This document shows positions 1 through 19,030 of a DNA stretch of 32,000 nucleotides, piece after piece. Source of the DNA: Candidatus Nanohalobium constans (lineage in GTDB: Archaea > Nanohalarchaeota > Nanosalinia > Nanosalinales > Nanosalinaceae); NCBI RefSeq assembly GCF_009617975.1, contig NZ_CP040089.1:630001-662000 (forward strand), written 5' to 3'. The number at the start of each line of letters is the position of its first letter. The stretch's first letter is position 1. The position numbers and the translations under genes are program-made. The notes beneath the pieces were generated by a model that saw only the letters and a list, made by a program, of their open reading frames with translations, was not told the origin of the DNA and ran no database searches.

Positions 1-1292
1 ACATCTCCGAAAACATAGTCTATGTTTCGTTCTTTCAGTCCGTCTATTTTTTCTGGATCGTATTCAATGACAACCGGTTTCTCTTCAAGACCTTCGACAA
101 TTTTCTTGCCTTGTACATCATATCCTATGAGGATGATGTGGTTTTCCGGTTCGTCGACGGTTGACTCCATTCCGTCTGGTGTGGCGAAGAGGTTGGAGAA
201 TATTTTGTACAGTTTTTGCTGGTTTCTGCTGGTGTAAGCCGATAATGTCATCGTTGCTGCAGTAGCTACTACCACTGATTGAAGGAGACCTATCTGTATG
301 AGTTCAAGCAGGTATGCCTGTATCGCGATGATTACTGCGAACTCGCTTACCTGATCCAGTCCAAGACCTGTTAGGAATGCTACCCTGCTGTTCTCTTCTA
401 CCGTACGCAAAGCAGTATAAATCACGAAAGGATTAACAACTAGGGTAAACGCTGTTATTGCCGCAGCCGTGATGAATACTTGGGTGTCTGCGGTTGCCGC
501 TATTGCTCCGATGGATACGAACAGTATTGCTGTGAAGAAGTCTTTGAGAGTTCCAACTGTGTCGATTATCTCCAGGCTGTAAGGGTATTTTGAAAGAGCT
601 AGACCTGCTGCGAACGCTCCGACGACGGTTGGAATTTCCAGTATATAGGAGATTCCTACGAATCCTGCGAGCGTTCCAAGTGAGAAAACCATTATTGTCT
701 CTGTTGAGTCTTTGAAGCTTTTCGCGAAAACTGTAAATCCTTTTTTAAAGCTGTAAGACAGGATCAACAGGACTAAACCGTAGGTTACGGCGTGTAAAGG
801 AGTTACTGAGAAGATCAGAAGTATCAGTATTACAGCTGCCAGATCTTGAAGGAGTTGAACTGTTTCAATTAGTCTGCTGTGCACCAGTTCTTTTCTTAAG
901 TCGTCGCTGATAAGCTCTAATCCAACTAGGGAAGATGATAGGGCTGATGCAGATACAAATACTGCTATTTCAATCCCTCTTAGCTGTAGTAGAAGTGCTG
1001 TGGGCAGTGCTAGGGTCGTTGTCATGACTATGGATACGACGGCGGCTAGTCCTCCGTTTCTTGCGACTGATTGAAGTTTGCGTGTGCTGAACTTTACACC
1101 ATAGATGAAAACCAGGAATGCTATGCCCACTCTTGATAGGTCAAGCACCTGATTTAGTTCCATGAAATTGGTTAAGAATAGCCCTGATAGTATATAGAGC
1201 GGTACAGCTGGTTGGTCTAGTTCTCTGGAAATCAGCAGTGCTGTTGCTGCTGCCGTGAAGATAAGTGTAAGTGTAAACAGTATTTCGCTCAT
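1..1292 (-). CDS. CPA2-family (Kef-type) monovalent cation/H+ antiporter with C-terminal RCK/TrkA-N domain; partial, 3' end runs off the window
   Basis: Not in the supplied ORF track because it is open at the window edge. My own minus-strand translation from the ATG at 1292-1290 is stop-free down to position 1. It reads MSEILFTLTLIFTAAATALLISRELDQPAVPLYILSGLFL..., continues through many hydrophobic segments, and ends ...ENHIILIGYDVQGKKIVEGLEEKPVVIEYDPEKIDGLKERNIDYVFGD (Rossmann-like RCK start). It has the same architecture as 1289..2953. Its ATG overlaps that gene's TGA (ATGA). Confidence 0.75.
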   Translation of the reverse strand, partial: MSEILFTLTLIFTAAATALLISRELDQPAVPLYILSGLFLTNFMELNQVLDLSRVGIAFLVFIYGVKFSTRKLQSVARNGGLAAVVSIVMTTTLALPTALLLQLRGIEIAVFVSASALSSSLVGLELISDDLRKELVHSRLIETVQLLQDLAAVILILLIFSVTPLHAVTYGLVLLILSYSFKKGFTVFAKSFKDSTETIMVFSLGTLAGFVGISYILEIPTVVGAFAAGLALSKYPYSLEIIDTVGTLKDFFTAILFVSIGAIAATADTQVFITAAAITAFTLVVNPFVIYTALRTVEENSRVAFLTGLGLDQVSEFAVIIAIQAYLLELIQIGLLQSVVVATAATMTLSAYTSRNQQKLYKIFSNLFATPDGMESTVDEPENHIILIGYDVQGKKIVEGLEEKPVVIEYDPEKIDGLKERNIDYVFGD

Positions 1293-2953
1293 CTTGATTG
1301 CCACTTGATTTTTTCTTTTTCAGCTTTTATTTCCTGTTTGAATAGCTCCGGTTCTTCCCTGTAAAGGTTGAGGTAGTCGAGCAGTTGCTCTGCCGTCAAC
1401 TCGTTCCTGCGTATCACATAATGTGCGCCGAGTTCGTACAGCTCCAGGGCTTCTTCCAAGCTTTCAGCCCTTAAGAAGACTGTGGCATCAGTTACATCGT
1501 CAAGCACTTGAAGGTTTACCTCGTGCTGACCGGACACCGAGACGACGAGCTCAGCGCTTTGAAGCCTGGAAGAGTTTCTTATCTCACCATGCCGGAAATC
1601 ACCGTAGATATACTCAAAGCTTGAGCCGCTCAGTTCATCTATATTGTTGGAGTCAGAGTCAATAACAAGTATATCGTCAAAGCTTTCTTCCAGAGTTGTA
1701 ACTATTCCACGGGATATTGCATCGTAGCCTACGATAACCGCATGATCTTCTAATCGACTGATATCTACATCATTCTTTTCCTCTGACTTGAATCCTTCAA
1801 GCAAGTGTTCAAACCTGGAATGAAGAGAGGTATTGAAGTTTATGAGGTACGAGGATACTGTCATGGTTGTTATGGCTGTGAGGCTGGCAAAGCCGACGAA
1901 CTCTGTGGAAATCATTTGTTTGGATGCGGCTAGCGTTGCTAGGACAATTGAGAACTCGCTGATTTGTGCCATGTTTATGCTGGATAGGAATGAGGTTTCA
2001 GGTGAGAACTTGGAGTAATCTGTAAGCAGAAAGCCTGAGAAGAACTTAAGTGGGATAACCAGCAGTGATACTATGATTGCTTCCATCCAGTACATTGCTA
2101 TGGCGTCTTGTGTAAGCTTGAGTCCTACTCCTATGAAGAAGACTGCCATGAATACATCTGTGAGCGGTCTGATTCTTTCCATAACCTCTTCACTGATCTT
2201 TAGCCTTCCCAAGCCGATTCCTGCAAGAAATGAGCCGATCTCAACCGACAGGTTTAGGAACTGAGAGACCTGGATAAAAATGAAGAGCCAGGCAACTGCA
2301 TAGATCAGGAATCCGTGTTTCTCCTCAGCAAACGAATTAAATAGTCTTGAAAGAAGATACTTAGACGATATTACAGATACGACAGCTGTTAAAAGTATAA
2401 ATACAATCGTTTCACTTATTTTAAATCCTAGGGCAGTGAAGCTGTTGGCTGAAGTGTTTAAAGCGGCTAGACCTAGGACAACAACTATGTCTTGAAGTAA
2501 GAGTATGCTTACATCCAGCCTTCCTGGTAGAGAAGTTATCTGGTCTTTGTCGGAAAGCATTTTTACTACTACTGCCGTTGAGGAGAACATCAGGAATACT
2601 CCTGTGAATGCTGCCTGGACAGTTGTAAAGCCAAGCAGGTTTCCTATTATGAAGCCTGATATAAACATGAAGACCATTTGAAGACCTCCTATTAGAAGTG
2701 TAGGACCTATAATTTCCTTTACATCCTCAACATCGATTTCCAAGCCGATCAGGAACAGTAGGAATGCAAGACCGAGTTCTGAGAACAGTTTGATGGCTTC
2801 GCTGTGTGAAGTTACTCCGAATACCGCTGGTCCTAGAACCAGTCCTGTTAAAATGTATGCGATTACCGTGGGCTGTCTGAGCTTGTGGAAGATTATGGCT
2901 AGGGCTGCTGCTGAAACCACTGCTAACGCCGCTGCCTGTACTCCTACAACCAT
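1289..2953 (-). CDS. CPA2-family (Kef-type) K+/H+ antiporter with C-terminal RCK/TrkA-N domain
   Basis: The 554-aa product has a polytopic N-terminal part (ILTGLVLGPAVFG, ELGLAFLLFLIGLEID) typical of the Na_H_Exchanger/CPA2 family. The C-terminal part (HAVIVGYDAISRGIVTTLEE..VIDSD) is an RCK fold. Its start overlaps the Sua5 stop. Confidence 0.85.
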   Translation of the reverse strand: MVVGVQAAALAVVSAAALAIIFHKLRQPTVIAYILTGLVLGPAVFGVTSHSEAIKLFSELGLAFLLFLIGLEIDVEDVKEIIGPTLLIGGLQMVFMFISGFIIGNLLGFTTVQAAFTGVFLMFSSTAVVVKMLSDKDQITSLPGRLDVSILLLQDIVVVLGLAALNTSANSFTALGFKISETIVFILLTAVVSVISSKYLLSRLFNSFAEEKHGFLIYAVAWLFIFIQVSQFLNLSVEIGSFLAGIGLGRLKISEEVMERIRPLTDVFMAVFFIGVGLKLTQDAIAMYWMEAIIVSLLVIPLKFFSGFLLTDYSKFSPETSFLSSINMAQISEFSIVLATLAASKQMISTEFVGFASLTAITTMTVSSYLINFNTSLHSRFEHLLEGFKSEEKNDVDISRLEDHAVIVGYDAISRGIVTTLEESFDDILVIDSDSNNIDELSGSSFEYIYGDFRHGEIRNSSRLQSAELVVSVSGQHEVNLQVLDDVTDATVFLRAESLEEALELYELGAHYVIRRNELTAEQLLDYLNLYREEPELFKQEIKAEKEKIKWQSR

Positions 2954-7413: not shown

Positions 7414-8436
7414 ATGCCAAACTTTGCGGATTCTCTAAGAGAATTTTTCTTGGTGATAGCCAGCTCAGAGACAGAAATAAAAGAAAATAGCCTTCTGAAA
7501 AATCGTCTTGAAAAACTTGAGGAAATTTCGTCAGAACAGGAAATCGGATTTGATGCCTCTGAGGCACTTTTGAAATCTACTTTAGATGCAACATGTCTCA
7601 GCATTCTAAGCGGCAATATAGAGAAAAAGCCAACAGAATCAGAACTAACAATCGATGAAATCACAAATATTGGAGAAGAAAGCGACAGAAAAGAGGGATT
7701 AAACAGCGTAAGCCCCAGCAAGTCTAGGTCCTGGCTTTTCGAAAGCAGAGTTAGAGCGTGGTATGGAAATCATTTGAACCAAACTTTTCCTGACTTGACA
7801 CAAGAGTGCAATCACGAAAGCGTCTGTGAATTTATAATCAAGGAAGAAGATAAGGAAACTCAACTTGTCGAATGCAAGAGATTCAATTCTATAGTGGATT
7901 TAGAAGATGAAGAAATCGAAAGAAAATTCGAGACTCATTACAGCAAGGCATCGGGAAAACAGTTTCCCAGTACTGAAAATCTAGAGGATATCAAAAAATG
8001 TGAAAGGCACCTCTTAATCGGAATCACAGACTACTCCTCTGAAAAGAGAAAAATCACCGGTAACGGAACAGAATACGAAGTCGAAGGATGTAAGGAAGAA
8101 GACATTGAGCAAGTCAAGAAAGTAATAAAGTCAAACTACGAAGATTTCGATGTAGATCAAATCACTCTAGTTTGGACCACACTCTACAAAGACAAGGGAA
8201 AAGTAAAAGGAATAGCAGAGAGAACTGAAACAATAATCTCAAGTCCTGATGTAATAGACTACGAGGGATGGAATCTATTTGGCCATAAGGACTTTACAGG
8301 TGATGCATCTTTCGGAAGACTACTGTGTCATCATCAAGCAAAAAGCGATAACTGGATGATTGACGGATTAGATGCAGATAATCAAGTACTTTTCAGCCAG
8401 CAACCTGCGGAAAAAACAGGAAAATCTCAAGACTAG
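7414..8436 (+). CDS. hypothetical protein; possible PD-(D/E)xK nuclease-fold core
   Basis: A 340-aa ORF with an ATG start, on the opposite strand to the ribosomal/transcription string. Residues about 105-160 read WLFESRVRAWY...ESVCEFIIKEEDKETQLVECKRF. This is an E ... (D/E) ... ExK pattern like restriction-endonuclease-fold proteins. The gene is visibly more A-rich than its neighbours. The functional call is weak. Confidence 0.5.
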   Translation: MPNFADSLREFFLVIASSETEIKENSLLKNRLEKLEEISSEQEIGFDASEALLKSTLDATCLSILSGNIEKKPTESELTIDEITNIGEESDRKEGLNSVSPSKSRSWLFESRVRAWYGNHLNQTFPDLTQECNHESVCEFIIKEEDKETQLVECKRFNSIVDLEDEEIERKFETHYSKASGKQFPSTENLEDIKKCERHLLIGITDYSSEKRKITGNGTEYEVEGCKEEDIEQVKKVIKSNYEDFDVDQITLVWTTLYKDKGKVKGIAERTETIISSPDVIDYEGWNLFGHKDFTGDASFGRLLCHHQAKSDNWMIDGLDADNQVLFSQQPAEKTGKSQD

Positions 8437-8819: not shown

Positions 8820-8842
8820 AATTTTTGACTTGAGTTTAATCG

Positions 8843-10036
8843 TTAAATTGAGGGGTTGAAGAGTTTGTCAGCAGTTATTTCTGGTTCCTTTATCATGCCG
8901 CCTATTTCTTTCTCGAGTTTGTCAGCCCATTCTTGGTTTACTTTGCCGATGAGCATCTTGTCTTTGTCTTCTATGTTTTTCCAGTCGTTTCTTCCTGCTT
9001 TGTATATGTGGTGCCTTAGTGCTTCCCGGTTTCTGGCTACGAGGTAGAAGCTTCTGTCTACTGAACCGCCTAGTTCTATTAGTTCTTCGACTATTTCTTG
9101 GAAGTCTTCTCGATAGTTTTCGGATTGGCTGATTTTGTATGCTGCGACTAGTCTGAGATGGTAGTCGAAAGCTTTGTTTTTGTATGCTGTTCCTGTTGCT
9201 TCTTCTCTGTATAGTGCTCCGCCTTCTTCGGCTCTGTCGTAGAACGGTGTGTGGAGCCCTAGGATTTTTGGAAAGCCGCTTTTCTGTCCTGCTTTGAATC
9301 CGTTGTATGCTCTTGCTGCGTGAAACAGTTCATGTTTGGTCAGCATCCTGGCTTCTTCCTCGGAATACATCCTTTGACTATCTTCGCCTTTTGACACTAC
9401 AACTGTTTCTTTTTCAGGGATGTTGAAACAGCCTGAAACTTCTCTAAGCTCTACTTGGTAGTCCATTCCCAGTCTTTCTACTTCTGCTTCGAACATGTCT
9501 CTGAGTTCTTCAGGAGAAATATTTTCCTCCAGTTCTTCTTTTTCCAGTTCCTGAAGTTTCTGTAGCGAGTCTTGAACAGTTTCTTCACCGACCATTGACC
9601 AGATCTCTTCCGAATATCTTCTCCAAGAGCCTTCATCTTCTATATTGGCAGCTAATTTGGTGTAGAGTTTGAGTTCCTGGAATATTTCCTGGAAGAAGTT
9701 CTGCATTTCCTGTGAAGTAAGCTTCTTTGCACCATATTTCTCCAGATTATCTTCTTCAATTAGTTTTACAGCTTCTATGCATTGTTCAATAAGTTCAAGA
9801 AGTTTTTCTTCATCGTAGGATGTTTTGCTGTATTCAAAGTTTGGTTTGAAGTTTTCTTCTTTTTCTCTGGCTTTTTTGAATCGTTTTCTTTCCTGTTTTT
9901 TGTTTTGTATGTTGATGTTGGAGATCCATGAAGCCTGTTCCAGCAGTTTTTCTGCGGCTGTTGAGAGTTCCTGTATGATCTTATCTTGATCAAATTTTAG
10001 GACTTCTTGCTTTTGGTCGATTTCCTCAGGCTGCAT
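8843..10036 (-). CDS. DUF1704 / MATCAP-like (QEGLA-motif family) putative zinc metallocarboxypeptidase
   Basis: HELFH (HExxH, residues 235-239) is followed by AARAYNG, then ILGLHTPFYDRAEEGGALYREE. EEGGA matches the QEGLA third-ligand motif that names the family. The N-terminal region NIQNKKQERKRFKKAREKEENFKPNFEY resembles the family's conserved N-terminal segment. This is recollection of the family profile, not a search. Confidence 0.6.
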   Translation of the reverse strand: MQPEEIDQKQEVLKFDQDKIIQELSTAAEKLLEQASWISNINIQNKKQERKRFKKAREKEENFKPNFEYSKTSYDEEKLLELIEQCIEAVKLIEEDNLEKYGAKKLTSQEMQNFFQEIFQELKLYTKLAANIEDEGSWRRYSEEIWSMVGEETVQDSLQKLQELEKEELEENISPEELRDMFEAEVERLGMDYQVELREVSGCFNIPEKETVVVSKGEDSQRMYSEEEARMLTKHELFHAARAYNGFKAGQKSGFPKILGLHTPFYDRAEEGGALYREEATGTAYKNKAFDYHLRLVAAYKISQSENYREDFQEIVEELIELGGSVDRSFYLVARNREALRHHIYKAGRNDWKNIEDKDKMLIGKVNQEWADKLEKEIGGMIKEPEITADKLFNPSI

Positions 10037-10057
10037 AAGTTAACCAGTCTTTTCAGA

Positions 10058-10067
10058 AGAATTAAAG
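10058..10067. promoter_or_regulatory. TATA-like AT-rich box centred in the 57-nt divergent spacer
   Basis: GAATTAAAGA lies roughly 25-33 nt from both start codons (10036 on minus, 10094 on plus). This fits a shared bidirectional archaeal promoter with very short or no leaders. The call rests on the sequence pattern only. Confidence 0.3.
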
Positions 10068-10093
10068 AGTATTGAAGTAAGAGTTATGATTTC

Positions 10094-11044
10094 ATGAGCG
10101 AGCAAAATATTGCTTTCCTGTGGGATGCAGAAGTTGAATGGAATAGAGAAAAACCATTTGAAGGAGAAAGAAGCAAGGACTTCGAAAAATACACTGAGAT
10201 AGCCCATGATGAAGGCTTGAAAGTCTACTTCGCTAAATACAAGTGGTATAGCAACGGAAAACTGGATAAAGCCTGGTGCTGGAACGGGGAGAACTGGGAG
10301 AAGGTTCGAGATGTGGGTCTCGATGGGGTTTATGATAAATACAAATTTGACAACGAAACTAAAGATTTGAAGCAGGAGATTTTTGAAGAGCTACCTGTTG
10401 CCAATAACCCTGAGTTAGAGGAGATCTGTAAAGATAAGTTGAAGACTTATGAGCTTTTCTCGGATTATGTTCCTGAGACTCGGACCGCAACTAGGGAGAA
10501 TTCTGAGGAAATGCTTGAAGACGGGAAAATCGTGTTTAAGCCTCGTTACGGTTTTGCCGGGAAAGGAGTAGAAGTTTTAGAGGATACCAGCGAGTTTAAT
10601 GAACCAGAGGATCCGAAGTTGCATATTATTCAGCGTTTTGTTCCTACTGATGGCGCGCCGATGTTCGGTGTGGAGGGTCCTCATGATTTGAGGACGATTG
10701 TTATTGATGGTGAGATTCAGAACGGTAACTATATCCGAGTTCCTGAGGATGGCTTAATCAGCAATATTTCTCGTGGTGGAAATCAGAAGTATGTGGACAG
10801 AGATGAACTGCCTGAAAGCGTAGTAGAGATAATTGAAGAGATTAAGGAGGAGTTTGAAGAGTTCCAGCCCGGTATTTTCTCGGTTGACTTCATGTTTGAC
10901 GATGAGGAGACTCCTGTTATTGTGGAGTTGAATTCTAAACCAGGGACTTACTACCATCACCCTGTTAAGAAGAAGGAGAAGGAGTTGCCGAAAATCCGCA
11001 ATATTTTGAAGATGCTTCGAAAGAGGATTGAACAAGATGAATAA
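10094..11044 (+). CDS. ATP-grasp amidoligase (YheC/YheD- or TTL-like layout), paralogue 1
   Basis: The full ATP-grasp motif set is present: IVFKPRYGFAGKGVEVL, LHIIQRFV, HDLRTIVIDGEI, IRVPEDGLISNISRGGNQ and FSVDFMFDDEETPVIVELNSKPG. Confidence 0.75.
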   Translation: MSEQNIAFLWDAEVEWNREKPFEGERSKDFEKYTEIAHDEGLKVYFAKYKWYSNGKLDKAWCWNGENWEKVRDVGLDGVYDKYKFDNETKDLKQEIFEELPVANNPELEEICKDKLKTYELFSDYVPETRTATRENSEEMLEDGKIVFKPRYGFAGKGVEVLEDTSEFNEPEDPKLHIIQRFVPTDGAPMFGVEGPHDLRTIVIDGEIQNGNYIRVPEDGLISNISRGGNQKYVDRDELPESVVEIIEEIKEEFEEFQPGIFSVDFMFDDEETPVIVELNSKPGTYYHHPVKKKEKELPKIRNILKMLRKRIEQDE

Positions 11045-11990
11045 GACCGTCGCATTCCTGTGGTGGGAAGGAGAAGTACAATGGGAAAACGCAGACCAAC
11101 CCTTCTCCAAAGACTGGAAAAGCCAGGACTACGCAGAGTACATGGAGATGCTGGCAGAGAAAGATATCAGAGTAGTCTGCGGAGACTACACATGGTACAG
11201 AGATGAGAGCATGCAAAAGGCCTGGCATTGGAACGGCGAAGAATGGAGAAAAGTAGAAAAAGTTGAGTTAGACGGCGTTTATGATCTCTTCCGACATGAT
11301 AAAGGGAAGTACGAGTTGAAGAAAGAGATGAAAGAGGATGTCGGTATTTTGAATGATCCTGAGGTTGCTGAGCTGTGTCAAGACAAGTTGAAGACATTCG
11401 AAAGGTTTGAGGAGTACATACCTGAAACCAGGAAGGCTAGTGAGAAAAATGTAGAGGAGATGATCGAAAAGTATGGTAAGGTTATCGTTAAGCCTCGTTA
11501 CGGGTCTTCTGGAGAGGGTATTAGTGTTGTGGAGGATGTTTCTGAGTTTGAGGTGCCTGAGGACTGGGATGAAATGATAGTTCAGAAAATTATGGAGAAT
11601 TTAGGTACAGACGAGCTGGGTGTGGAGGGTCCTCATGACTTGCGTGTGATAGTTGTGAACGATGAGGTTATTGGCAGTTACCTTAGAATCCCTGAAGAGG
11701 GAGAGTTGCTCAGTAATGTGGCTCAGGGCGGATCGAAAAAGTATGTTGATTTGGATGATGTTCCTAAGGAAGCTTTGAGTATAGTTGAGGAAGTAGCCAG
11801 TGAATTAGACGATTATAGACCGGTAATCTATACTGTGGATGTCATGTTTTCTGACGGAGAACCTATGATCGTGGAGCTCAACTCTCAGCCTGGTATTTAT
11901 TATCACGGTCCTGGCAGGAAAGAGAGTCGAGAGAAGCCTTGGATGAAAAAAGTAGTTGAAGCCATAGGAGAATTAGCTGAGAGTAGTTAA
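11037..11990 (+). CDS. ATP-grasp amidoligase, paralogue 2 (tandem duplicate of 10094..11044)
   Basis: It is collinear with paralogue 1 over its full length (VIVKPRYGSSGEGISVV, HDLRVIVVNDEV, LRIPEEGELLSNVAQGGSKKY, YTVDVMFSDGEPMIVELNSQPG). The ORF-track start at 11028 is TTG. The ATG at 11037 overlaps the upstream stop (ATGAATAA) and is preceded by AGAGGA. Confidence 0.75.
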   Translation: MNKTVAFLWWEGEVQWENADQPFSKDWKSQDYAEYMEMLAEKDIRVVCGDYTWYRDESMQKAWHWNGEEWRKVEKVELDGVYDLFRHDKGKYELKKEMKEDVGILNDPEVAELCQDKLKTFERFEEYIPETRKASEKNVEEMIEKYGKVIVKPRYGSSGEGISVVEDVSEFEVPEDWDEMIVQKIMENLGTDELGVEGPHDLRVIVVNDEVIGSYLRIPEEGELLSNVAQGGSKKYVDLDDVPKEALSIVEEVASELDDYRPVIYTVDVMFSDGEPMIVELNSQPGIYYHGPGRKESREKPWMKKVVEAIGELAESS

Positions 11991-12865
11991 TGTGCTTGTT
12001 TTTCCATTGCTCTTTCGTGCATTCTTTCTACCATTCTGAGGATTACATCCTCTCCTATAAGCTGGTTCATTTCTTCGCTTATTCCGAATGAGCCGTTTAC
12101 CTCAAGTACATATGGTTCTTCTTCTCCGATTATATCTGCTCCGCAGATGTCGAATCCCATGGATGCTGAGGCTGCGAAAGCTACTTGCTTCATTTCATCT
12201 GTTATGTTGGCTTTGACTCTGTCGCCTCCTCCGGATATGTTTGAACGCCATTCGTCCCCACTGCTGCTTCTGGAGTATCCTGTTATGTAGTCGCCGATCT
12301 TGGTGACTCTGGTATCTTTTCCTCCGTGTTCTTTGAATTCCTGGAGGCATATCTCCTGTTCAAAGGACTTCATTGTATCCATTACAGGTTTTAACTCGTT
12401 TTCTGATGTTGCTCTCATCACTCCTTCTCCTCCTGCACCTCTGACTGTTTTCATGATTACAGGATAGCCTAGTTCTCTGGCAGATTCTACTGCTACTTCT
12501 GGGGAAAGCGTGTATATACTGTCAGGAACATTTACTCCGTTTTCAGCTAGTATCTTCATACTGTAGAACTTGTTTGATTCGTATGCGTATGTGTCGTTCT
12601 CTGCCTGGGTGACGACTCCTGATTCGTTTAGTACCTCTACTAGGTGTTCTGAGAACATCATGTCGTTGTCGGCTGTTCTTATGTATACTGCGTCGAACTC
12701 TGTGAGATCTGTGTCTTTGTAAAGTACTTTTTCCTCTTCTTCTCCATGCACGAATTTTATTCCTTCTATGGGTGCTGCGAGGACAGAGTCGAATATTTCT
12801 TCTGCTCTCTCCATCAGTAACTGGTGTTTTGTGGAGATTTCTCCATAGATAATTCCTAATTTCAT
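11987..12865 (-). CDS. RimK-family alpha-L-glutamate ligase-like ATP-grasp enzyme (catalytic motifs intact)
   Basis: Motifs PVIMKTVRGAGGEGVMRA, ICLQEFKEH, EWRSNISGGGD and PYVLEVNGSFG align with E. coli RimK (VVKLVEGTQGIGV, DFRSNLHRGG, VMEVNASPG). Its ATG overlaps the upstream TGA (ATGA) and is preceded by AAGGTGA. Confidence 0.85.
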   Translation of the reverse strand: MKLGIIYGEISTKHQLLMERAEEIFDSVLAAPIEGIKFVHGEEEEKVLYKDTDLTEFDAVYIRTADNDMMFSEHLVEVLNESGVVTQAENDTYAYESNKFYSMKILAENGVNVPDSIYTLSPEVAVESARELGYPVIMKTVRGAGGEGVMRATSENELKPVMDTMKSFEQEICLQEFKEHGGKDTRVTKIGDYITGYSRSSSGDEWRSNISGGGDRVKANITDEMKQVAFAASASMGFDICGADIIGEEEPYVLEVNGSFGISEEMNQLIGEDVILRMVERMHERAMEKQAH

Positions 12866-13674
12866 TTTTGTTCACCTTTGAGAACCTGGGAGACATTCTG
12901 ATGTACATCCTGCCCTGCCTTTCTCTCATACATCTGGAGATCCGGTTGAGGGTTCATGTCGACCACTTCTTGTCCTCTAAGCTTTACCTCTATGATATCA
13001 GCACCTAAGGCATTTGCTGCACCTTGAACTATCTCTTTCTTGTCGTTCGAAATGTTAGAGTATTTCAGTTTATCTTTTGAGAACTTCCAGTCTTCTGTAT
13101 TATCTTTAAGCGATATTACCTTATCTCCTAGAACCAGACAGTAGTATTTGTCGCCTGAACTGTATTCTTGGAAGAGGATAAATTCTTCTCCATATTCTAC
13201 TCCCTCTGTAAATCCTTGTATGGATTCTACTGTGTCAAGTTTCTTTGATTCTACTTCTTCTAGTTCTTCGAATCTTCTTGCTGTTACTGGGCCTTTGATG
13301 TGTCTTTCTATTCCTCTTGCAGCTTTTTCTGAGGCTATCGAAACTGTCTTCGGGCATTCAATGTTTTTCTGTGTTAGTACATGGTATAGGTAGTTTTTCT
13401 TTGCTGCTGTGAAGAATGATGTTGAGGATATGTTGACTGGTATTCCTTTTTCTTCTATCATTTCTAGAAGTACTCTGCCGAATACAGCGTTTTTACTTGG
13501 TATCTCGGCGTAGACTGCGTCGTATTTGTCTACTGTTTCTCCGTCTACTTTGACATCCGGCACTTGATCTATTACTTGAGGGGCTAACTGGTCAAGTGAC
13601 TTTGTCTGGACTTGTTCGAAGAAGTTTTCGAAATCTTCTTCTGTTTCCGAGTCACTGATTCTTAGAAGATCCAC
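12862..13674 (-). CDS. RimK-like ATP-grasp paralogue with degenerate catalytic motifs (probable pseudoenzyme)
   Basis: It is collinear with RimK, but the Lys/Gly-rich ATP loop is replaced by PVTARRFEELEEVES. The RxN..GG motif is replaced by DWKFSKDKLKY. ExN becomes VVDMNPQPD. The start is GTG at 13674, preceded by GGAGG, and lies inside the end of the upstream gene. Confidence 0.6.
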   Translation of the reverse strand: MDLLRISDSETEEDFENFFEQVQTKSLDQLAPQVIDQVPDVKVDGETVDKYDAVYAEIPSKNAVFGRVLLEMIEEKGIPVNISSTSFFTAAKKNYLYHVLTQKNIECPKTVSIASEKAARGIERHIKGPVTARRFEELEEVESKKLDTVESIQGFTEGVEYGEEFILFQEYSSGDKYYCLVLGDKVISLKDNTEDWKFSKDKLKYSNISNDKKEIVQGAANALGADIIEVKLRGQEVVDMNPQPDLQMYERKAGQDVHQNVSQVLKGEQK

Positions 13675-15163
13675 TTGTATCCTCCCTGTTTACGCCCCAT
13701 TCTCTTGAAAATTCGTCTTTCTCTCTGCTCCACTTCTCAATGTAACCCCTAACTGATACCGGCATCACATCTGTCAGCACTCTGCCTTGCCTCATGATTT
13801 TTCTAAGCCTGTTTTCCAGTGTCTTAGACAGATCTTCGTACTCTTCTTTTTCACTGTAGATAAGATCGTTCTTCAGTCTCCAGTGCGCATTGGTGCCTTC
13901 TCGTGCTAACACGATGTAGCCATCCTCACCGCTCATTAATTCTTTCATCCTGTTGCCTGCGACATAGTAGACTCCGTTCTCAGATCCTCTCCGAGTATCA
14001 ATGTTCAATACCTCTCCCGATTCAACAGCTACAGACAAAGTATAGTCATCTTCAGCATCCATGAACAGCCCTGATTTATCCAGTTTTGAGATAATTAAGG
14101 CTCCATCATTGAACCAGGATTTGAACTCAGTTCCTAGATCTGAAACTTTATCAGCTTCTATAAAGGCGGTCTTAATCTCTCCTTCAGACGCATCCTCAAC
14201 CAGTTTCTGAACATCCTCGGGTTCTTCACCTTCTAGCTTATCTATTATATCATCCCTGCTGTAGTAGTTTTCAAATATTTCAAGAGCTAGTTGGGCAGTG
14301 GCTGCTGTGTTTTCATCTTCAGAAGACTTAAAGTAAGAGTTTATCTCTTGAAGAGTCTCCAAGTCATTCTTGGACTTCTTAAACTTGATCCCAGAATCCA
14401 AGACCTTTCTGTTAGGCGTAAGAGACGTATAACCATCTTTGGTTTCAAGAGTCGTGCCAAACAAAGATACTTCCCTTATCTCACCAGTCTCATCATCAAG
14501 CTTTACTTCTTCACCCGGTCTGATAACCCGAGAATTCTTAAGATACAAACCTGCGCCGAGATTCTGGAACAAGTCTTTCAAGGAGTAGAAAACCAGTCCT
14601 GCCGCCAACAAAGCAAATGCCCATACAAACGCGTTAAGCAACTGATTTACCAATGCTATATTCAACTGCAGCTGGTAAAGCAGTATCTGCACCAGCACAA
14701 GATACAGAAAACCCTTGATCCCTGTAGAAAGAACATTAAATGATGCTGAAGAAATACCTGCCTCTCTGACATACTTCTTTAACCCCAATGTTTGGAAAAA
14801 GTCCTTGAAAACATTCTCAGCTATGTTTATCGTTATCACGCCAAGGAAACCTATTAAAATAGCTGACAATACATTCGGAGCATTCTGAACAAGAGTTTGT
14901 TGCAGTTGGGAGCTTATGCCCACATTCAGGTATGCCAATGCAACTACAACTACTATAGCATCTAGAGTATTAGAAACAAGTTTAATTCTATCCTCATGCT
15001 GACGCAGCTCTTTTACAGTAGCTTTTTCTGTAGTATACTTTCTAACTGCTTTCAAACCCAGTTTAATGCTGAGATGTCCTAATGCTAAGATTAGGAGTGC
15101 GCCCAGTATACGCAACATAGGTCCTGAAGCAAAGTTGGACAGAGTTTCGGATAGAATTGCCAT
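13652..15163 (-). CDS. MscS-family mechanosensitive channel homologue fused to an unassigned C-terminal domain of about 230 aa
   Basis: Several TM helices are followed by the pore-helix/beta-domain signature AAGLVFYSLKDLFQNLGAGLYLKNSRVIRPGEEVKLDDETGEIREVSLFGTTLETKDGYTSLTPNRKV. Residues about 270-504 are soluble, Cys-free and unrecognised. The ORF-track start at 15166 is TTG. An ATG follows at 15163. Confidence 0.7.
   Translation of the reverse strand: MAILSETLSNFASGPMLRILGALLILALGHLSIKLGLKAVRKYTTEKATVKELRQHEDRIKLVSNTLDAIVVVVALAYLNVGISSQLQQTLVQNAPNVLSAILIGFLGVITINIAENVFKDFFQTLGLKKYVREAGISSASFNVLSTGIKGFLYLVLVQILLYQLQLNIALVNQLLNAFVWAFALLAAGLVFYSLKDLFQNLGAGLYLKNSRVIRPGEEVKLDDETGEIREVSLFGTTLETKDGYTSLTPNRKVLDSGIKFKKSKNDLETLQEINSYFKSSEDENTAATAQLALEIFENYYSRDDIIDKLEGEEPEDVQKLVEDASEGEIKTAFIEADKVSDLGTEFKSWFNDGALIISKLDKSGLFMDAEDDYTLSVAVESGEVLNIDTRRGSENGVYYVAGNRMKELMSGEDGYIVLAREGTNAHWRLKNDLIYSEKEEYEDLSKTLENRLRKIMRQGRVLTDVMPVSVRGYIEKWSREKDEFSREWGVNREDTSGSSKNQ
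13681..13685 (-). promoter_or_regulatory. Shine-Dalgarno GGAGG for the GTG-started degenerate ATP-grasp gene
   Basis: The minus strand reads GGGAGGATACAAGTG. GGAGG sits 6 nt before the GTG at 13674, inside the 3' end of the MscS-like gene, which suggests translational coupling. Confidence 0.4.
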
Positions 15164-15209
15164 CAATATTAACCAGTAACTGATTCCTTGTTTAAAAACT
15201 CTGCGTTTT

Positions 15210-16952: not shown

Positions 16953-18371
16953 ATGAGGCTTAGAGTGGTTTCTCAGATAATCGGAAGGTTCATGCTGGTT
17001 TTTGCCCCGATACTTGCCTCACCCGTGCTGATAGGACTCTACTACTCAGAGCCTAGTCACATACTAGCTCCTTTTATCTACGCATCGATCGCCTGTTTAA
17101 TCGCTGGTTTTATCTTGAAACACGGAGGAAAGAGCAGCGACCCTTCTGTAAAGGAAGCTCTTATAGCCACAGTACTAGGATGGAGCATAGCCACCTTTCT
17201 AGGAGGCGTACCGCTTCTATCAGAGATGAGTTTCATCAACGCAGTATTTGAATCAGCAGCAGGACTGACAACCACAGGGATATCAATGTTTCTAACACCC
17301 GAGGAACTACCTAACTCAATACTTTTCTGGAGATCATTGATGCAGTGGGTTGGCGGACTTGGAATTCTAACCTTCTTCATAGCAGTTATAAGAGAAAGCG
17401 GAGGCATCTCCCGCAGACTCTTCTCCGCTGAGACACATAAGACAGATCCAGGCAGCATAAGACCTTCACTTAGAAAGTCTATAATCGAACTCTGGCGCGT
17501 ATACGGATTCATCACCTCAGTAATCATAGGAACATTCGTCGCCCTAGGGATGACGCCTTTCAACGCTATCACTCACGGTTTCTCCACTTTATCTACAGGA
17601 GGCTTCTCAACGACCAGCCAAAGCCTTGGAGGTTTCTCGCCGGAGATCCAGGCTGCCACAATCCCATTCATGTTTATAGGTGGAGTTAACTTTGTCTTAC
17701 TTTACAGGTTCCTGCGTGGAGAGGCTAGTGCATTGAAGAACTCCGAATTAAAGATGTATATGCAGATCTTTATCGCCATGACAGGAGTCTTCTTCCTCGG
17801 ATATATGGGAAGTAGCAGCGCTCTTCTCGACTCAGCCTTCCAGTCCGCAGCCATTATTTCTTCCACAGGATTTGGGACTGCCTCACTCCTCACGCTTTCA
17901 ACAGCAATTCAAGTTGTGATAATTGCTGCAATGTTTGCTGGAGGATCTGTTGGCTCAACTGCGGGAGGAATCAAAGTTTTCAGATTGAAAGCATTGATAG
18001 AACTTGTTAAAACCCGTATCCGAGCTTACAGCCTTCCGGAAACTGCTGTTAACGAGGTTAAGATTGATGAAGAAATAATGGATAGGTCGACCATCAGAAC
18101 CATCTCAGTGCTGTTCTTTGTCTGGGTTGTGGTCGTTTTCGCTGGCACTGTCTCTGTTCTAGCTCTTGATGGCGTTACCTTCGAGGCAGCCCTGTCTGGG
18201 GCGGTTTCCTCAGCAGGAAACATGGGACCGGTGTTTATGGAGGGCGGACAGATGGTAGAGCTGAGCTGGATGAGCAAAAGTATCTGGATCCTGTTGATGT
18301 TGGCGGGTCGTCTGGAGATGCTTCCGCTTCTGGCAATATTTAATAGGAGCTTTCTCCCAGATTCAAAGTAA
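16953..18371 (+). CDS. trkH: TrkH/KtrB-family K+ transporter membrane subunit
   Basis: A 472-aa polytopic protein with repeated pore-loop-like segments (AAGLTTTGIS, LSTGGFST, ISSTGFGT, GSTAGGIKV). Confidence 0.9.
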   Translation: MRLRVVSQIIGRFMLVFAPILASPVLIGLYYSEPSHILAPFIYASIACLIAGFILKHGGKSSDPSVKEALIATVLGWSIATFLGGVPLLSEMSFINAVFESAAGLTTTGISMFLTPEELPNSILFWRSLMQWVGGLGILTFFIAVIRESGGISRRLFSAETHKTDPGSIRPSLRKSIIELWRVYGFITSVIIGTFVALGMTPFNAITHGFSTLSTGGFSTTSQSLGGFSPEIQAATIPFMFIGGVNFVLLYRFLRGEASALKNSELKMYMQIFIAMTGVFFLGYMGSSSALLDSAFQSAAIISSTGFGTASLLTLSTAIQVVIIAAMFAGGSVGSTAGGIKVFRLKALIELVKTRIRAYSLPETAVNEVKIDEEIMDRSTIRTISVLFFVWVVVVFAGTVSVLALDGVTFEAALSGAVSSAGNMGPVFMEGGQMVELSWMSKSIWILLMLAGRLEMLPLLAIFNRSFLPDSK

Positions 18372-19030
18372 TGTACATTGTAATCACCGGAATCAACACA
18401 CTTTCCAGAAGACTGGTTGACAGACTGGAAGGCAGACACGATGTGGTAGTAATAGAAGAGGACGAAGACAAATGTGAGAGACTGTACTCTTCAAGCGGGG
18501 CAACAGTCATTAACAAAGCACCGTCAACACTTTCAGCACTGGAAGACGCTGGAATAACACAAGCCGATGTACTGATCTCAACACAGAAAGACGACAACGA
18601 AAACATGGTAGTATGCTCACTCGGGAAAAAATACGGTGTGCCAAAAGTAGTCTCACGGATGGAAGACGACGAATACTTCGAAGCATTCCAGATAATCGAC
18701 GCACAAGCCATCGGACACACAGACCTACTTCTCTCAGAATTCCTATCAGCAGTAGAACACCCCTACCTCGTGAAACTGGCTAACCTTTCAGGCGACAGAG
18801 AAGTATTGAAAGCATCAATCAAAGACGACTCCTCTCTCCGTGGAAAAACAATCAAACAGATGAAACACCGAAAGAAATTCCCAAACGAATTCCTCGTCAC
18901 TTCAATAATAAAAGAAGAAGACACCATGAATGCCGAACCAGAAACTGAGATAGAGGAAGAAGACTCAATAATACTTATAGGACCTCAAGACGAGAAAGAA
19001 AAACTGGACAAGTTCTTCCAGAATCAATGA
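18371..19030 (+). CDS. trkA: TrkA-type RCK regulatory subunit (TrkA-N plus TrkA-C)
   Basis: The N-terminus MYIVITGINTLSRRLVDRLEGRHDVVVIEEDEDK is Rossmann-like. A C-terminal TrkA-C-like segment is present (LKASIKDDSSLRGKTIKQM...DSIILIGP). The start overlaps the trkH stop (TAATG). Confidence 0.85.
   Translation: MYIVITGINTLSRRLVDRLEGRHDVVVIEEDEDKCERLYSSSGATVINKAPSTLSALEDAGITQADVLISTQKDDNENMVVCSLGKKYGVPKVVSRMEDDEYFEAFQIIDAQAIGHTDLLLSEFLSAVEHPYLVKLANLSGDREVLKASIKDDSSLRGKTIKQMKHRKKFPNEFLVTSIIKEEDTMNAEPETEIEEEDSIILIGPQDEKEKLDKFFQNQ

What the first reader, a model, noticed from the sequence alone, without database searches (positions are those of the whole stretch)
8843..15166. Four ATP-grasp ligases, a MATCAP/DUF1704-like metallopeptidase and an MscS-fusion protein: candidate add/remove system for C-terminal amino-acid tails
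Six contiguous genes form two tightly coupled units.

- On the minus strand are the MscS-like fusion, the degenerate RimK paralogue and the intact RimK-like ligase. They are linked by a 23-nt overlap and an ATGA overlap.
- Around a 57-nt spacer, the HExxH/EEGGA DUF1704-like peptidase faces two tandem YheC/TTL-like ATP-grasp ligases.

Established knowledge gives the parallel. RimK adds Glu residues to the C-terminus of bacterial ribosomal protein bS6. TTL-family ATP-grasp enzymes add Tyr/Glu to tubulin tails. As far as I recall, MATCAP, the tubulin detyrosinase, belongs to the DUF1704 family.

Ligases and a matching carboxypeptidase in one locus suggest a reversible protein or peptide tail-modification cycle in a reduced archaeon. 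No such cycle is characterised in archaea to my knowledge.

The competing hypothesis is synthesis and turnover of a small peptide osmolyte, with the MscS-like protein as release valve. I see no precursor-peptide ORF, because the intergenic space is too small. That argues against a graspetide-type RiPP cluster.
Basis: partly seen in the sequence, partly recalled or inferred. Interest (0 to 1): 0.85.

Follow-up and report, generated by a model that had tools for sequence, protein, structure and literature searches.

The report
Archaeal peptide ligase–peptidase–channel gene cassette
Six adjacent genes in a tiny salt-loving archaeon form one conserved, exchangeable unit (four amino-acid ligases, a relative of the tubulin-trimming enzyme MATCAP, and a membrane channel fused to a dead peptidase domain) that probably builds and trims a short acidic peptide chain whose carrier is still unknown.

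Summary
The window is from Candidatus Nanohalobium constans, and all six ORFs, the gene overlaps and the 57-nt spacer are as described.

- **Peptidase (8843-10036).** It is a divergent but genuine DUF1704/MATCAP-family zinc peptidase (gluzincin). It carries HExxH instead of the family's HExxxH, and EEGGA in place of QEGLA.
- **Ligases.** There are two YheC/D-type ATP-grasp ligases, one RimK-type ligase about as conserved as eIF2γ, and one RimK pseudo-enzyme that is conserved across the phylum.
The C-terminal half of the MscS protein is a phytochelatin-synthase/C39-like papain-fold domain. Its catalytic Cys and His are lost here.
- **Distribution.** The block was found only in Nanohaloarchaeota.
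- **Swapped as one unit.** The closest relative has 89-91 % identical flanks, yet carries a different cassette: an intact Cys/His domain, a GCS2/YbdK ligase, one YheC ligase and no peptidase.
- **Peptidase location.** In other lineages the peptidase gene sits in the ribosomal stalk operon.
- **Bacterial parallel.** Two bacteria sampled have FGase–DUF1704–GshB-like ATP-grasp operons.

The six genes are therefore one ligase-plus-hydrolase system.

The parts
8843..10036 (-). Divergent DUF1704/MATCAP-family gluzincin metallopeptidase (397 aa), referred to as PEP
   Evidence: - PF08014: 28 bits against a cutoff of 27. TIGR02421: E 1e-8.
- hhalign against canonical DUF1704: probability 100 %, E 1.5e-38, 325 columns.
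- The canonical DUF1704 profile hits human MATCAP (7z5g) at E 2e-17.
- AF2 model pLDDT 93. The best PDB folds are M32 carboxypeptidases.
9320..9334 (-). Metal-binding motif H235-E-L-F-H239 (HExxH)
   Evidence: - Invariant in 33 orthologues.
- Aligns with HEvgvH of canonical DUF1704 with a one-residue deletion.
9215..9229 (-). E270-E-G-G-A274, the counterpart of the QEGLA/TEEGLA motif (by gluzincin analogy the third metal ligand)
   Evidence: - E270 is nearly invariant and E271, G272, G273 and A274 are invariant.
- Aligned to TEEGLA of canonical DUF1704; the canonical profile aligns the same motif to MATCAP.
10037..10093 (.). 57-nt A+T-rich spacer between the divergently transcribed peptidase and ligase genes; presumed to hold both promoters
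   Evidence: - Sequence read.
- The divergent arrangement is conserved in all type-A loci.
- Promoter function is inferred, not shown.
10094..11044 (+). YheC/D-type ATP-grasp ligase 1 (316 aa), catalytic motifs intact
   Evidence: - PF14398: 46.6 bits. PF02655: 47.2 bits.
- K-x3-G-x2-G-x-G-V, SNxxxGG and D...ExN motifs are present (read).
- 45 % identical to ligase 2.
11028..11990 (+). YheC/D-type ATP-grasp ligase 2 (320 aa; the start may be the ATG at 11037)
   Evidence: - PF08443: 57 bits. PF14398: 54 bits. GSH-S_ATP: 51 bits.
- Best PDB sequence hits are ArgX, RimK and GshB.
- Copy number of this family is 1-3 in orthologous cassettes.
11987..12865 (-). RimK-family alpha-L-glutamate-ligase-like enzyme (292 aa), intact
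   Evidence: - PF08443: 102 bits. TIGR00768: 136.6 bits against a cutoff of 143.4.
- RimK structures 7qyr, 5zct and 4iwx hit at E about 1e-22.
- Mean column identity across 10 orthologues is 80 %.
12862..13674 (-). Catalytically degenerate RimK paralogue (270 aa), a conserved pseudo-enzyme
   Evidence: - PF08443: 23 bits.
- All 10 orthologues aligned lack the Gly-rich loop, the RSN..GG motif and the first Mg-binding Asp.
- Present in every cassette seen.
14387..15166 (-). Membrane part of the fusion protein: five hydrophobic segments plus the MscS pore-lining helix and beta-domain (residues 1-260)
   Evidence: - PF00924: 29.3 bits at residues 198-259. PF05552: 20.8 bits.
- Hydropathy analysis.
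13652..14386 (-). Cytoplasmic phytochelatin-synthase/C39-like papain-fold domain (residues 261-504), with catalytic Cys and His lost in this genome
   Evidence: - Orthologues hit PF13529, PF03412 and PF05023.
- The AF2 model best matches Nostoc Alr0975 (E 5e-6, TM 0.5-0.6), then the PCAT1 and ComA C39 domains.
- The window protein has 'ENTAATAQ' and 'DDYTLS' where orthologues have 'YCGPAS' and 'GHFVLS'.

Best explanation
The six genes form one functional cassette, found here only in Nanohaloarchaeota. It assembles and trims a short, acidic, probably glutamate-rich peptide chain at the cytoplasmic face of an MscS-type channel.

**Inferred mechanism.**
- The intact RimK-type ligase, partnered by its conserved pseudo-enzyme paralogue, adds alpha-linked Glu to a terminal carboxylate in an ATP-dependent reaction.
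- The one to three YheC/D-type ligases add further or different residues.
- The DUF1704/MATCAP-type metallocarboxypeptidase removes C-terminal residues, for maturation or turnover.
- The channel fusion protein anchors the enzymes through its dead phytochelatin-synthase/C39-like domain, which would bind substrate. It either releases the product or glutamate, or couples the system to membrane tension.

I judge the acceptor more likely to be a free non-ribosomal peptide or metabolite than a protein.

**Shown.** Gene content, family membership, the state of the active sites, conservation, and behaviour as a single exchangeable unit.

**Inferred.** All chemistry, the physical complex, and the nature of the product.
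For: **One unit.**
- The genes overlap.
- The block is conserved in every locus long enough to show it.
- Against the closest relative (L036/L037), flanking proteins are 89-91 % identical. RimK, YheC and the channel fusion are only 66, 44 and 47 % identical.
- DNA homology breaks at about 15177 and about 8827, which are the cassette edges.

**A hydrolase is part of the pathway.** Cassettes with the metallopeptidase have lost Cys and/or His in the papain-fold domain. Cassettes with intact Cys and His lack the peptidase and carry a GCS2/YbdK ligase. The one exception is L030.

**Lean towards a small peptide.**
- Ligase number and type vary between cassettes.
- The papain-fold domain is closest in structure to the glutathione-cleaving enzyme Alr0975 (PMC12065762).
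- The YheC ligases also match GSH-S_ATP and glutathione synthase models.
- The two bacterial DUF1704 genes sampled lie in FGase–DUF1704–GshB-like operons.
- MscS-family channels export glutamate (PMC6110860).
- Ligase-plus-peptidase operons make the peptide osmolyte NAGGN (PMC8070244).
- From memory, most known RimK-family substrates other than bS6 and LysW are small molecules: MptN, CofF and RIMKLA/B.

**Glu chemistry.**
- RimK makes free poly-alpha-Glu, and its partner protease stimulates this (PMC11957791).
- MATCAP/TMCP enzymes are deglutamylases (PMC10499314).
Against: - No product, acceptor or activity is known for any of these proteins.
- The RimK-like enzyme is about as conserved as eIF2γ. 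That could equally suit a macromolecular substrate.
- The peptidase gene lives in the ribosomal stalk operon in other lineages.
- The only characterised DUF1704 members act on protein tails.
- GCS2-fold ligases and papain-fold domains also include protein modifiers (PafA; deubiquitinase-like enzymes; from memory).
- One cassette (L030) has neither the peptidase nor an intact Cys/His domain.
- Nanohaloarchaea are thought to use a salt-in strategy, so the need for an organic osmolyte is unclear (from memory).
Confidence: 0.45

Rival explanations
1. This is the first reader's idea: a writer/eraser cycle on a protein C-terminal tail. The ligases extend the C-terminus of a protein and the MATCAP-like carboxypeptidase removes the added or encoded terminal residues, analogous to RimK/RimB on bS6 or TTL/MATCAP on tubulin. 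Candidate acceptors suggested by this work are the ribosomal stalk protein P1 and the channel fusion protein's own tail.
For: - RimK-type ligase plus a peptidase is a proven tail cycle in Pseudomonas (PMC11957791).
- DUF1704 relatives remove C-terminal Tyr and Glu from acidic tails (PMC10499314).
- The peptidase gene lies between or beside the P0 and P1 genes in at least 6 lineages of this clade. Canonical DUF1704 genes lie beside P1 and alaS in two further nanohaloarchaeal lineages.
- A rough NJ tree suggests at least two moves between the ligase cassette and the stalk operon.
- Nanohaloarchaeal P1 ends in an acidic stretch followed by GLGxLF, with a terminal Phe.
- About half of the channel fusion proteins end in a conserved E[TA][ST]E[DN]N. 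Others end in WSPE[ED][ED].
- The RimK-like enzyme is about as conserved as eIF2γ.
Against: - No acceptor was identified. bS6 does not exist in archaea.
- Adjacency to translation genes is weak evidence in a roughly 1-Mb genome that is dense in such genes.
- Variable ligase number, substitution by GCS2, and the glutathione-hydrolase-like fold are less expected for a tail code.
- The TTL signal is marginal.
- The bacterial DUF1704 operons sampled look metabolic.
Confidence: 0.28
2. The genes are independent functions held together only by conserved synteny in a compact genome. The channel plus RimK pair, the YheC ligases and the peptidase would have no common substrate.
For: - The whole region from TrkH to S24e is syntenic across the phylum.
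- The peptidase can live elsewhere.
- The YheC genes and the peptidase are on different strands from the RimK unit.
Against: - The recombination or replacement breakpoints coincide with the six-gene block, not with sub-blocks.
- The active-site state of the papain-fold domain co-varies with the presence of the peptidase and GCS2.
- Gene overlaps and a 57-nt divergent spacer link the genes.
- DUF1704 and ATP-grasp genes overlap in two bacteria.
Confidence: 0.1
3. The RimK-family ligases serve a known small-molecule or carrier-protein pathway: glutamylation of tetrahydromethanopterin (MptN) or F420 (CofF), or LysX/ArgX-type ligation to LysW.
For: MptN, LysX and CofF are the next-best NCBIfam matches for the RimK-like protein, at 113, 100 and 70 bits. 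ArgX is the best PDB hit of YheC2.
Against: - All scores are far below the equivalog cutoffs of 350, 276 and 300 bits.
- No pathway partner genes lie in the window.
- DPANN archaea generally lack these biosynthetic pathways (from memory; not tested on the full genome).
Confidence: 0.04
4. The block is a graspetide-type RiPP cluster, or a C39-processed secreted peptide with a ribosomal precursor.
For: ATP-grasp ligases occur together with a C39-like domain fused to a membrane protein. This resembles PCAT exporters.
Against: - There is no precursor ORF. Intergenic gaps are at most 57 nt and the genes overlap.
- The ligases belong to RimK and YheC/D families rather than to any graspetide-ligase family.
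- The C39-like domain is catalytically dead here.
- The membrane part is an MscS fold, not an ABC transporter.
Confidence: 0.02

Closest known systems
RimK–RimB (RimABK) system of Pseudomonas
   Same: A RimK-family alpha-L-glutamate ligase is encoded next to a peptidase that removes the added glutamates. The same enzymes also make free poly-alpha-Glu (PMC11957791). The RimK-like protein here hits RimK structures at E about 1e-22.
   Different: - The peptidase here is a DUF1704 gluzincin, not a retropepsin.
- There is no RimA (EAL) regulator in the block.
- The substrate bS6 does not exist in archaea.
- Extra components here are a pseudo-RimK, YheC/D ligases and an MscS fusion protein.
TTL/TTLL ligases with MATCAP/TMCP carboxypeptidases on tubulin tails
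   Same: The peptidase family is the same (PF08014), shown by transitive profile matches. The logic is also the same: ATP-grasp ligases opposed by a carboxypeptidase on acidic C-termini (PMC10499314).
   Different: - The motif is HExxH rather than HExxxH.
- The ligases are YheC/D and RimK types with only marginal TTL scores.
- There is no tubulin-tail-like acceptor, and no acceptor is known.
- Foldseek did not return MATCAP among the top 50 hits.
Bacterial FGase–DUF1704 (QEGLA, TIGR02421)–GshB-like ATP-grasp operons
   Same: DUF1704 is directly coupled to an ATP-grasp ligase (overlapping genes) in Rubinisphaera and in a second bacterium. The function is uncharacterised in both cases.
   Different: - The bacterial ligase is only about 26 % identical over about 170 residues to the YheC-type ligases.
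- An FGase domain or gene is present in the bacteria and absent here.
- The bacteria have no channel, RimK or pseudo-RimK genes.
Phytochelatin-synthase-like enzyme Alr0975 / C39 and C39-like domains of PCAT and HlyB-type exporters
   Same: It is the best structural match of the C-terminal domain of the channel fusion protein. As in exporters, a papain-fold domain is fused to a membrane conduit. It occurs in both active and inactive forms; the inactive form in HlyB-type exporters is from memory.
   Different: The domain is fused to an MscS-type channel rather than an ABC transporter. No glutathione pathway or leader peptide has been identified.
NAGGN osmoprotectant operon (asnO–ngg–peptidase)
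   Same: It makes a non-ribosomal peptide using an ATP-grasp-containing ligase, with a peptidase encoded in the same operon, and it is linked to osmoadaptation (PMC8070244).
   Different: The enzyme families differ (GNAT–ATP-grasp fusion, asparagine synthase, M42 peptidase) and there is no channel. Window ligases give only weak matches to TIGR03103.

Membership tests
DUF1704 / MATCAP (PF08014, TIGR02421) | Profile match over the whole domain | tested here: met
   - PF08014: 28.0 bits against a cutoff of 27.
- The nanohaloarchaeal profile hits canonical members that score 158-336 bits on PF08014.
- hhalign: probability 100 %, E 1.5e-38, 325 columns.
- The canonical profile hits human MATCAP at E 2e-17.
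DUF1704 / MATCAP (PF08014, TIGR02421) | Extended HExxxH metal-binding motif | tested here: not met
   The motif here is H235-E-L-F-H239 (HExxH), invariant in 33 orthologues. It aligns to HEvgvH with a one-residue deletion. The His, Glu and His residues are retained.
DUF1704 / MATCAP (PF08014, TIGR02421) | xEGxA (QEGLA/TEEGLA) motif carrying the third metal ligand | tested here: met
   In EEGGA 270-274, E271, G272, G273 and A274 are invariant and E270 is nearly invariant. The motif aligns to TEEGLA of canonical DUF1704; the canonical profile aligns TEEGLA to MATCAP.
DUF1704 / MATCAP (PF08014, TIGR02421) | Fold similarity to solved MATCAP | tested here: inconclusive
   The model has pLDDT 93. 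The Foldseek top hits are M32 gluzincin carboxypeptidases (E 2e-3, TM 0.33-0.43). MATCAP is not among the top 50.
DUF1704 / MATCAP (PF08014, TIGR02421) | Carboxypeptidase activity on C-terminal Tyr, Phe or Glu | not testable with these tools
   Needs an enzyme assay.
RimK family (TIGR00768 / PF08443) | ATP-grasp catalytic motifs and family score | tested here: met
   - PF08443: 102 bits against a cutoff of 21.
- The Gly-rich loop, RSN..GG and D...ExN motifs are invariant.
- TIGR00768: 136.6 bits, just under its cutoff of 143.4.
RimK (bS6–glutamate ligase equivalog, NF007764) | Equivalog score and presence of the substrate bS6 | tested here: not met
   The score is 92 bits against a cutoff of 331. 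Archaea have no bS6 (established knowledge).
YheC/D ATP-grasp (PF14398) | Score above the gathering cutoff | tested here: met
   46.6 and 54.3 bits against a cutoff of 26.8.
Tubulin-tyrosine-ligase family (PF03133) | Score above the gathering cutoff over the domain | tested here: inconclusive
   21.0 bits (residues 254-293 only) and 18.4 bits, against a cutoff of 20.1.
MscS channel family | Pore-lining helix plus beta-domain | tested here: met
   - PF00924: 29.3 bits against a cutoff of 20.2.
- PF05552: 20.8 bits against a cutoff of 22.
- Five hydrophobic segments lie upstream.
- The canonical C-terminal alpha/beta vestibule domain gave no match. A papain-fold domain follows the beta-domain.
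Phytochelatin synthase / peptidase C39 (papain fold) | Fold | tested here: met
   - Foldseek: Alr0975 at E 5e-6, TM 0.5-0.6, rmsd 2.8 Å. PCAT1 and ComA C39 domains at E 1e-4 to 1e-3.
- Orthologues hit PF13529, PF03412 and PF05023.
Phytochelatin synthase / peptidase C39 (papain fold) | Catalytic Cys and His | tested here: not met
   Both are lost in the window protein. They are intact in about 40 of 108 orthologues.
Graspetide RiPP cluster | Precursor-peptide gene beside the ligase | tested here: not met
   There is no room for one. Gaps are at most 57 nt and the genes overlap.
Known anti-phage defence systems (PADLOC) | Any component match | tested here: not met
   No hits for seven proteins.

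The most novel reading that the evidence does not exclude
An archaeal 'tail code' on the translation machinery. The MATCAP-family carboxypeptidase would clip the terminal Phe (…EGLGxLF) of ribosomal stalk protein P1, and the ATP-grasp ligases would rebuild or glutamylate that tail. The MscS-type fusion protein would couple the cycle to membrane tension or salinity. This would be a prokaryotic forerunner of the tubulin tyrosination/glutamylation cycle acting on the factor-binding tail of the ribosome. A variant of the idea is that the channel's own conserved C-terminal tail is the substrate.
Probability: 0.1. Interest if true: 0.9.

Novelty: new variant of a known kind. Interest (0 to 1): 0.6.

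Why it matters
- **An undescribed combination.** I found no paper that describes it. Prokaryotic DUF1704 proteins, the relatives of the tubulin detyrosinase/deglutamylase MATCAP, have no known substrate. Here the family sits in a compact cassette, found only in Nanohaloarchaeota, with four amide ligases and a channel. That gives a small, tractable system for finding out what these enzymes do.
- **New architectures.** The MscS–phytochelatin-synthase-like fusion and the conserved pseudo-RimK have not been described.
- **A natural experiment.** The cassette exists in at least two exchangeable forms within closely related genomes: metallopeptidase with a dead Cys domain, versus GCS2 with a live Cys domain. 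This points to functional substitution of one hydrolase by another.
- **Consequences of either outcome.** If the product is a secreted or osmotically released peptide, it bears on how these obligate symbionts cope with salinity or talk to their haloarchaeal hosts. If the substrate is a protein tail, it would be the first such cycle in archaea.

Tried and rejected
- **Direct match to MATCAP.** The profile of the nanohaloarchaeal peptidases against PDB sequences gave no MATCAP hit. Foldseek of the model gave M32 carboxypeptidases, not MATCAP. Membership was established instead through canonical DUF1704 proteins.
- **Literature.** There are no papers combining DUF1704 and ATP-grasp, and nothing on these genes in Nanohaloarchaea. 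The Iyer et al. 2009 amidoligase survey, which I recall as relevant, is not held.
- **RNA and signals.** Rfam found nothing in the window. The sigma-70 promoter and terminator scan is at background level and does not apply to archaea.
- **Defence system.** Rejected; there are no PADLOC hits.
- **The 231-240-aa gene next to the peptidase in stalk-operon genomes.** It has no Pfam match and no copy in the window, so it is not a hidden ligase.
- **Common ancestry of the ligase partners.** The bacterial DUF1704-linked ATP-grasp shows only superfamily-level similarity to the YheC ligases, so an ancient conserved two-gene module is not supported.
- **Pseudomurein-like wall peptide synthesis.** Considered because of weak Ddl_archaea and PeiR matches. 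Rejected because the scores are far below cutoff and the domain is cytoplasmic.
- **Link between cassette types.** I could not determine whether genomes whose cassette lacks the peptidase are the same genomes that carry it in the stalk operon.

Full report
**Origin and observation.** The 397-aa ORF at 8843-10036 is 100 % identical to a protein of Candidatus Nanohalobium constans on a 973,463-bp contig. The window is therefore from this DPANN ectosymbiont of haloarchaea. All six ORFs are present as described. I read four junctions directly:
- the 23-nt overlap at 13652-13674;
- the ATGA overlap at 12862-12865;
- the 57-nt spacer at 10037-10093;
- an 8- or 17-nt overlap between the two plus-strand ligase genes.

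- PF08014 MATCAP: 28 bits against a cutoff of 27, plus TIGR02421 'QEGLA' at E 1e-8;
- YheC/D ATP-grasp: 46.6 and 54.3 bits;
- RimK: 102 bits;
- a weak RimK match of 23 bits for the 270-aa protein;
- MscS beta-domain: 29 bits.

The 'TTL-like' label rests on marginal, short matches.

**The peptidase.** Thirty-three orthologues (41-66 % identical) share several invariant motifs: H235-E-x-x-H239, E271-G-G-A274 (E270 is nearly invariant), R335-N-R337 and R341-H-H343.
- The clade's profile does not reach MATCAP directly in PDB sequences.
- A high-confidence model (pLDDT 93) is closest to M32 gluzincin carboxypeptidases. MATCAP is not in the top 50.
- An exhaustive profile search found only 9 representatives below E 1e-30, which form the nanohaloarchaeal clade. 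It then found hundreds of proteins at E 1e-25 to 1e-9. Ten of these were scanned and score 158-336 bits on PF08014.
- Profile–profile comparison with those canonical DUF1704 proteins gives probability 100 % and E 1.5e-38 over 325 columns.
- The canonical profile hits human MATCAP (7z5g, 7z6s) at E 2e-17.

The protein is therefore a genuine but divergent family member. Its HExxxH motif is shortened to HExxH, and TEEGLA has become EEGGA. MATCAP/TMCP enzymes are gluzincins that remove C-terminal Tyr and also shorten poly-Glu chains (PMC10499314).

**The ligases.**
- The 292-aa protein matches RimK structures at E about 1e-22. It keeps every catalytic motif. It is very conserved, with a mean column identity of 80 %. 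Across genomes it is 64-80 % identical, against 65-78 % for eIF2γ in most loci compared.
- The 270-aa paralogue is only 19 % identical to it. All ten orthologues aligned lack the Gly-rich loop, the RSN..GG motif and the first Mg-binding Asp. It is a conserved pseudo-enzyme, translationally coupled to RimK. It is probably a non-catalytic partner, which is an inference.
- The two plus-strand ligases are 45 % identical tandem paralogues with intact motifs. Their secondary matches are to glutathione synthetase, ArgX/LysX and MptN models, far below the equivalog cutoffs.

The C-terminal half of the MscS fusion is a papain-fold domain.
- Orthologues hit Peptidase_C39_2, C39 and phytochelatin-synthase models.
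- A model of the domain (core pLDDT 85-93) is closest to the Nostoc glutathione-cleaving 'primitive phytochelatin synthase' Alr0975 (E 5e-6, TM 0.5-0.6). The C39 domains of PCAT1 and ComA come next.
- In N. constans the catalytic Cys and His are replaced. About 40 of 108 orthologues keep both.
- The membrane part has five hydrophobic segments before the MscS beta-domain. By the known MscS topology, the papain-fold domain should then be cytoplasmic, alongside the ATP-dependent ligases (inferred).

**Comparative genomics.** All relatives found with the peptidase-clade, channel-fusion and RimK queries are nanohaloarchaeal.
- **Type A**, as in the window: S6e–eIF2γ–[MscS fusion–pseudo-RimK–RimK–1, 2 or 3 YheC ligases–peptidase]–PIN–Rpb7. 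This occurs in about 15 lineages, including Nanosalinarum J07AB56 and Nanohalococcus occultus.
- **Type A′**: the same site carries MscS fusion–pseudo-RimK–RimK–GCS2/YbdK-type carboxylate-amine ligase–one YheC ligase, with no peptidase. It is seen in two lineages: L036/L037, and Nanohalovita haloferacivicina with the near-identical L033-L035 contigs. One lineage (L030) has neither GCS2 nor the peptidase.
- **Type B**: the peptidase gene lies between the stalk genes L10/P0 and L12/P1, with no ligase nearby.

Canonical DUF1704 genes of two other nanohaloarchaeal lineages lie beside P1 and alaS. A third, L046, has no obvious partners.

Two further results bear on function.
1. *Active-site state tracks cassette type.* The Cys/His state of the papain-fold domain co-varies with cassette type. 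It is intact exactly where GCS2 is present and the peptidase is absent. It is lost wherever the peptidase is present.
2. *The block is swapped whole.* The closest relative (L036/L037) has flanks 89-91 % identical at protein level. Its RimK, YheC and channel proteins are only 66, 44 and 47 % identical, which is less than in much more distant genomes. DNA homology stops at about 15177 and resumes at about 8827, which are the borders of the six-gene block.

The block is therefore exchanged as one unit. This is the strongest evidence that the six genes work together.

**Outside the archaea.** Two bacterial DUF1704 genes chosen for look-up both lie in overlapping FGase–DUF1704–GshB-like ATP-grasp operons. 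The pairing of DUF1704 with an ATP-grasp ligase is therefore not restricted to archaea. The ligases involved are not orthologous, and the bacterial system is uncharacterised.

**Interpretation.** I regard it as established that this is a single ligase-plus-hydrolase cassette with a membrane component. I favour a non-ribosomal acidic peptide as the product (confidence 0.45) for these reasons:
- ligase number and type vary between cassettes;
- the papain-fold domain resembles a glutathione hydrolase;
- the bacterial partners are GshB-like ligases and FGase;
- MscS channels export glutamate (PMC6110860);
- a ligase–peptidase operon makes the peptide osmolyte NAGGN (PMC8070244);
- RimK can make free poly-alpha-Glu, and its partner protease stimulates this (PMC11957791).

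The protein-tail reading (0.28) remains open:
- RimK/RimB and TTL/MATCAP are the only characterised precedents for such pairs;
- RimK conservation rivals that of eIF2γ;
- DUF1704 genes associate with the stalk operon in several lineages. A rough tree suggests the gene moved at least twice between the ligase cassette and the stalk operon;
- nanohaloarchaeal P1 ends in an acidic run followed by GLGxLF;
- the channel protein often has a conserved extreme C-terminus.

Pure synteny, cofactor or LysW pathways, RiPP clusters and defence systems are unlikely.

**Novelty and score.** Amide-ligase/peptidase neighbourhoods are a known kind. This archaeal cassette, with its MscS–phytochelatin-synthase-like fusion, pseudo-RimK, divergent MATCAP relative and two interchangeable forms, is an undescribed variant. 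I score interest at 0.6. It stays substantial because the system could reveal what prokaryotic MATCAP relatives do.

Noticed in passing
window 8827-15177 versus L036 2647-7900: The six-gene block differs sharply from that of the closest relative, although the flanks are 89-91 % identical at protein level. This points to cassette replacement or recombination among nanohaloarchaea, with breakpoints at the block edges.
   Followed up: yes
L003, L005, L015, L016, L019, L022 (peptidase between L10/P0 and L12/P1); L044, L045 (canonical DUF1704 beside P1 and alaS): DUF1704 genes lie in or beside the ribosomal stalk operon in several nanohaloarchaeal lineages. The four P1 proteins examined end in …EGLG[SNG][LM]F. 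The three P0 proteins examined lack that shared tail.
   Followed up: partly
window 13652-13700 (C-terminus of the channel fusion) and orthologues P0102-P0215: The otherwise variable acidic tail ends in a recurrent motif, E[TA][ST]E[DN]N. Of 108 orthologues, 48 end in Asn. Many others stop at WSPE[ED][ED]. This could be a recognition or modification site.
   Followed up: partly
window 7414-8436 (+): A 340-aa ORF with no Pfam or PADLOC match sits between the PIN and Rpb7 genes. This spot holds different genes in relatives: 291 aa in SG9, 226 aa in L036, none in L007. It is a second variable site next to the cassette.
   Followed up: partly
L005 9221-9943 (-) and orthologues in L003, L015, L016, L019, L022: A conserved 231-240-aa protein of unknown family accompanies the peptidase in every stalk-operon (type B) locus, directly adjacent and convergent in most, further downstream in L022. 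It has no Pfam match and no copy in the window.
   Followed up: partly
L047 7001-10038; L048 5210-8984: These are bacterial operons of FGase, DUF1704 and a GshB-like ATP-grasp ligase with overlapping genes. In L048 a Lon-type protease gene lies immediately upstream. About 665-aa FGase–DUF1704 fusion proteins are common.
   Followed up: partly
L023 (JBLGBK010000004.1): This contig is labelled 'MAG: Colwellia polaris', but it carries the complete nanohaloarchaeal cassette and flanks. It is probably a mis-binned or mislabelled contig.
   Followed up: no
window 1289-2953, 16953-19030: Ion-homeostasis genes bracket the region: a Na+/H+ exchanger with a TrkA_N domain, plus TrkH and TrkA. They are syntenic across the phylum. 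Further along are a photolyase, a GH1 glycosidase, a GT2 glycosyltransferase and a 697-aa protein with a faint Ig-like match.
   Followed up: no
L042 7466-7774; L043 7514-7771: An extra 85-102-aa ORF of unknown family lies between the S6e and eIF2γ genes in Nanohalovita and Nanohalococcus. It is absent from the window, where the gap is 59 nt.
   Followed up: no
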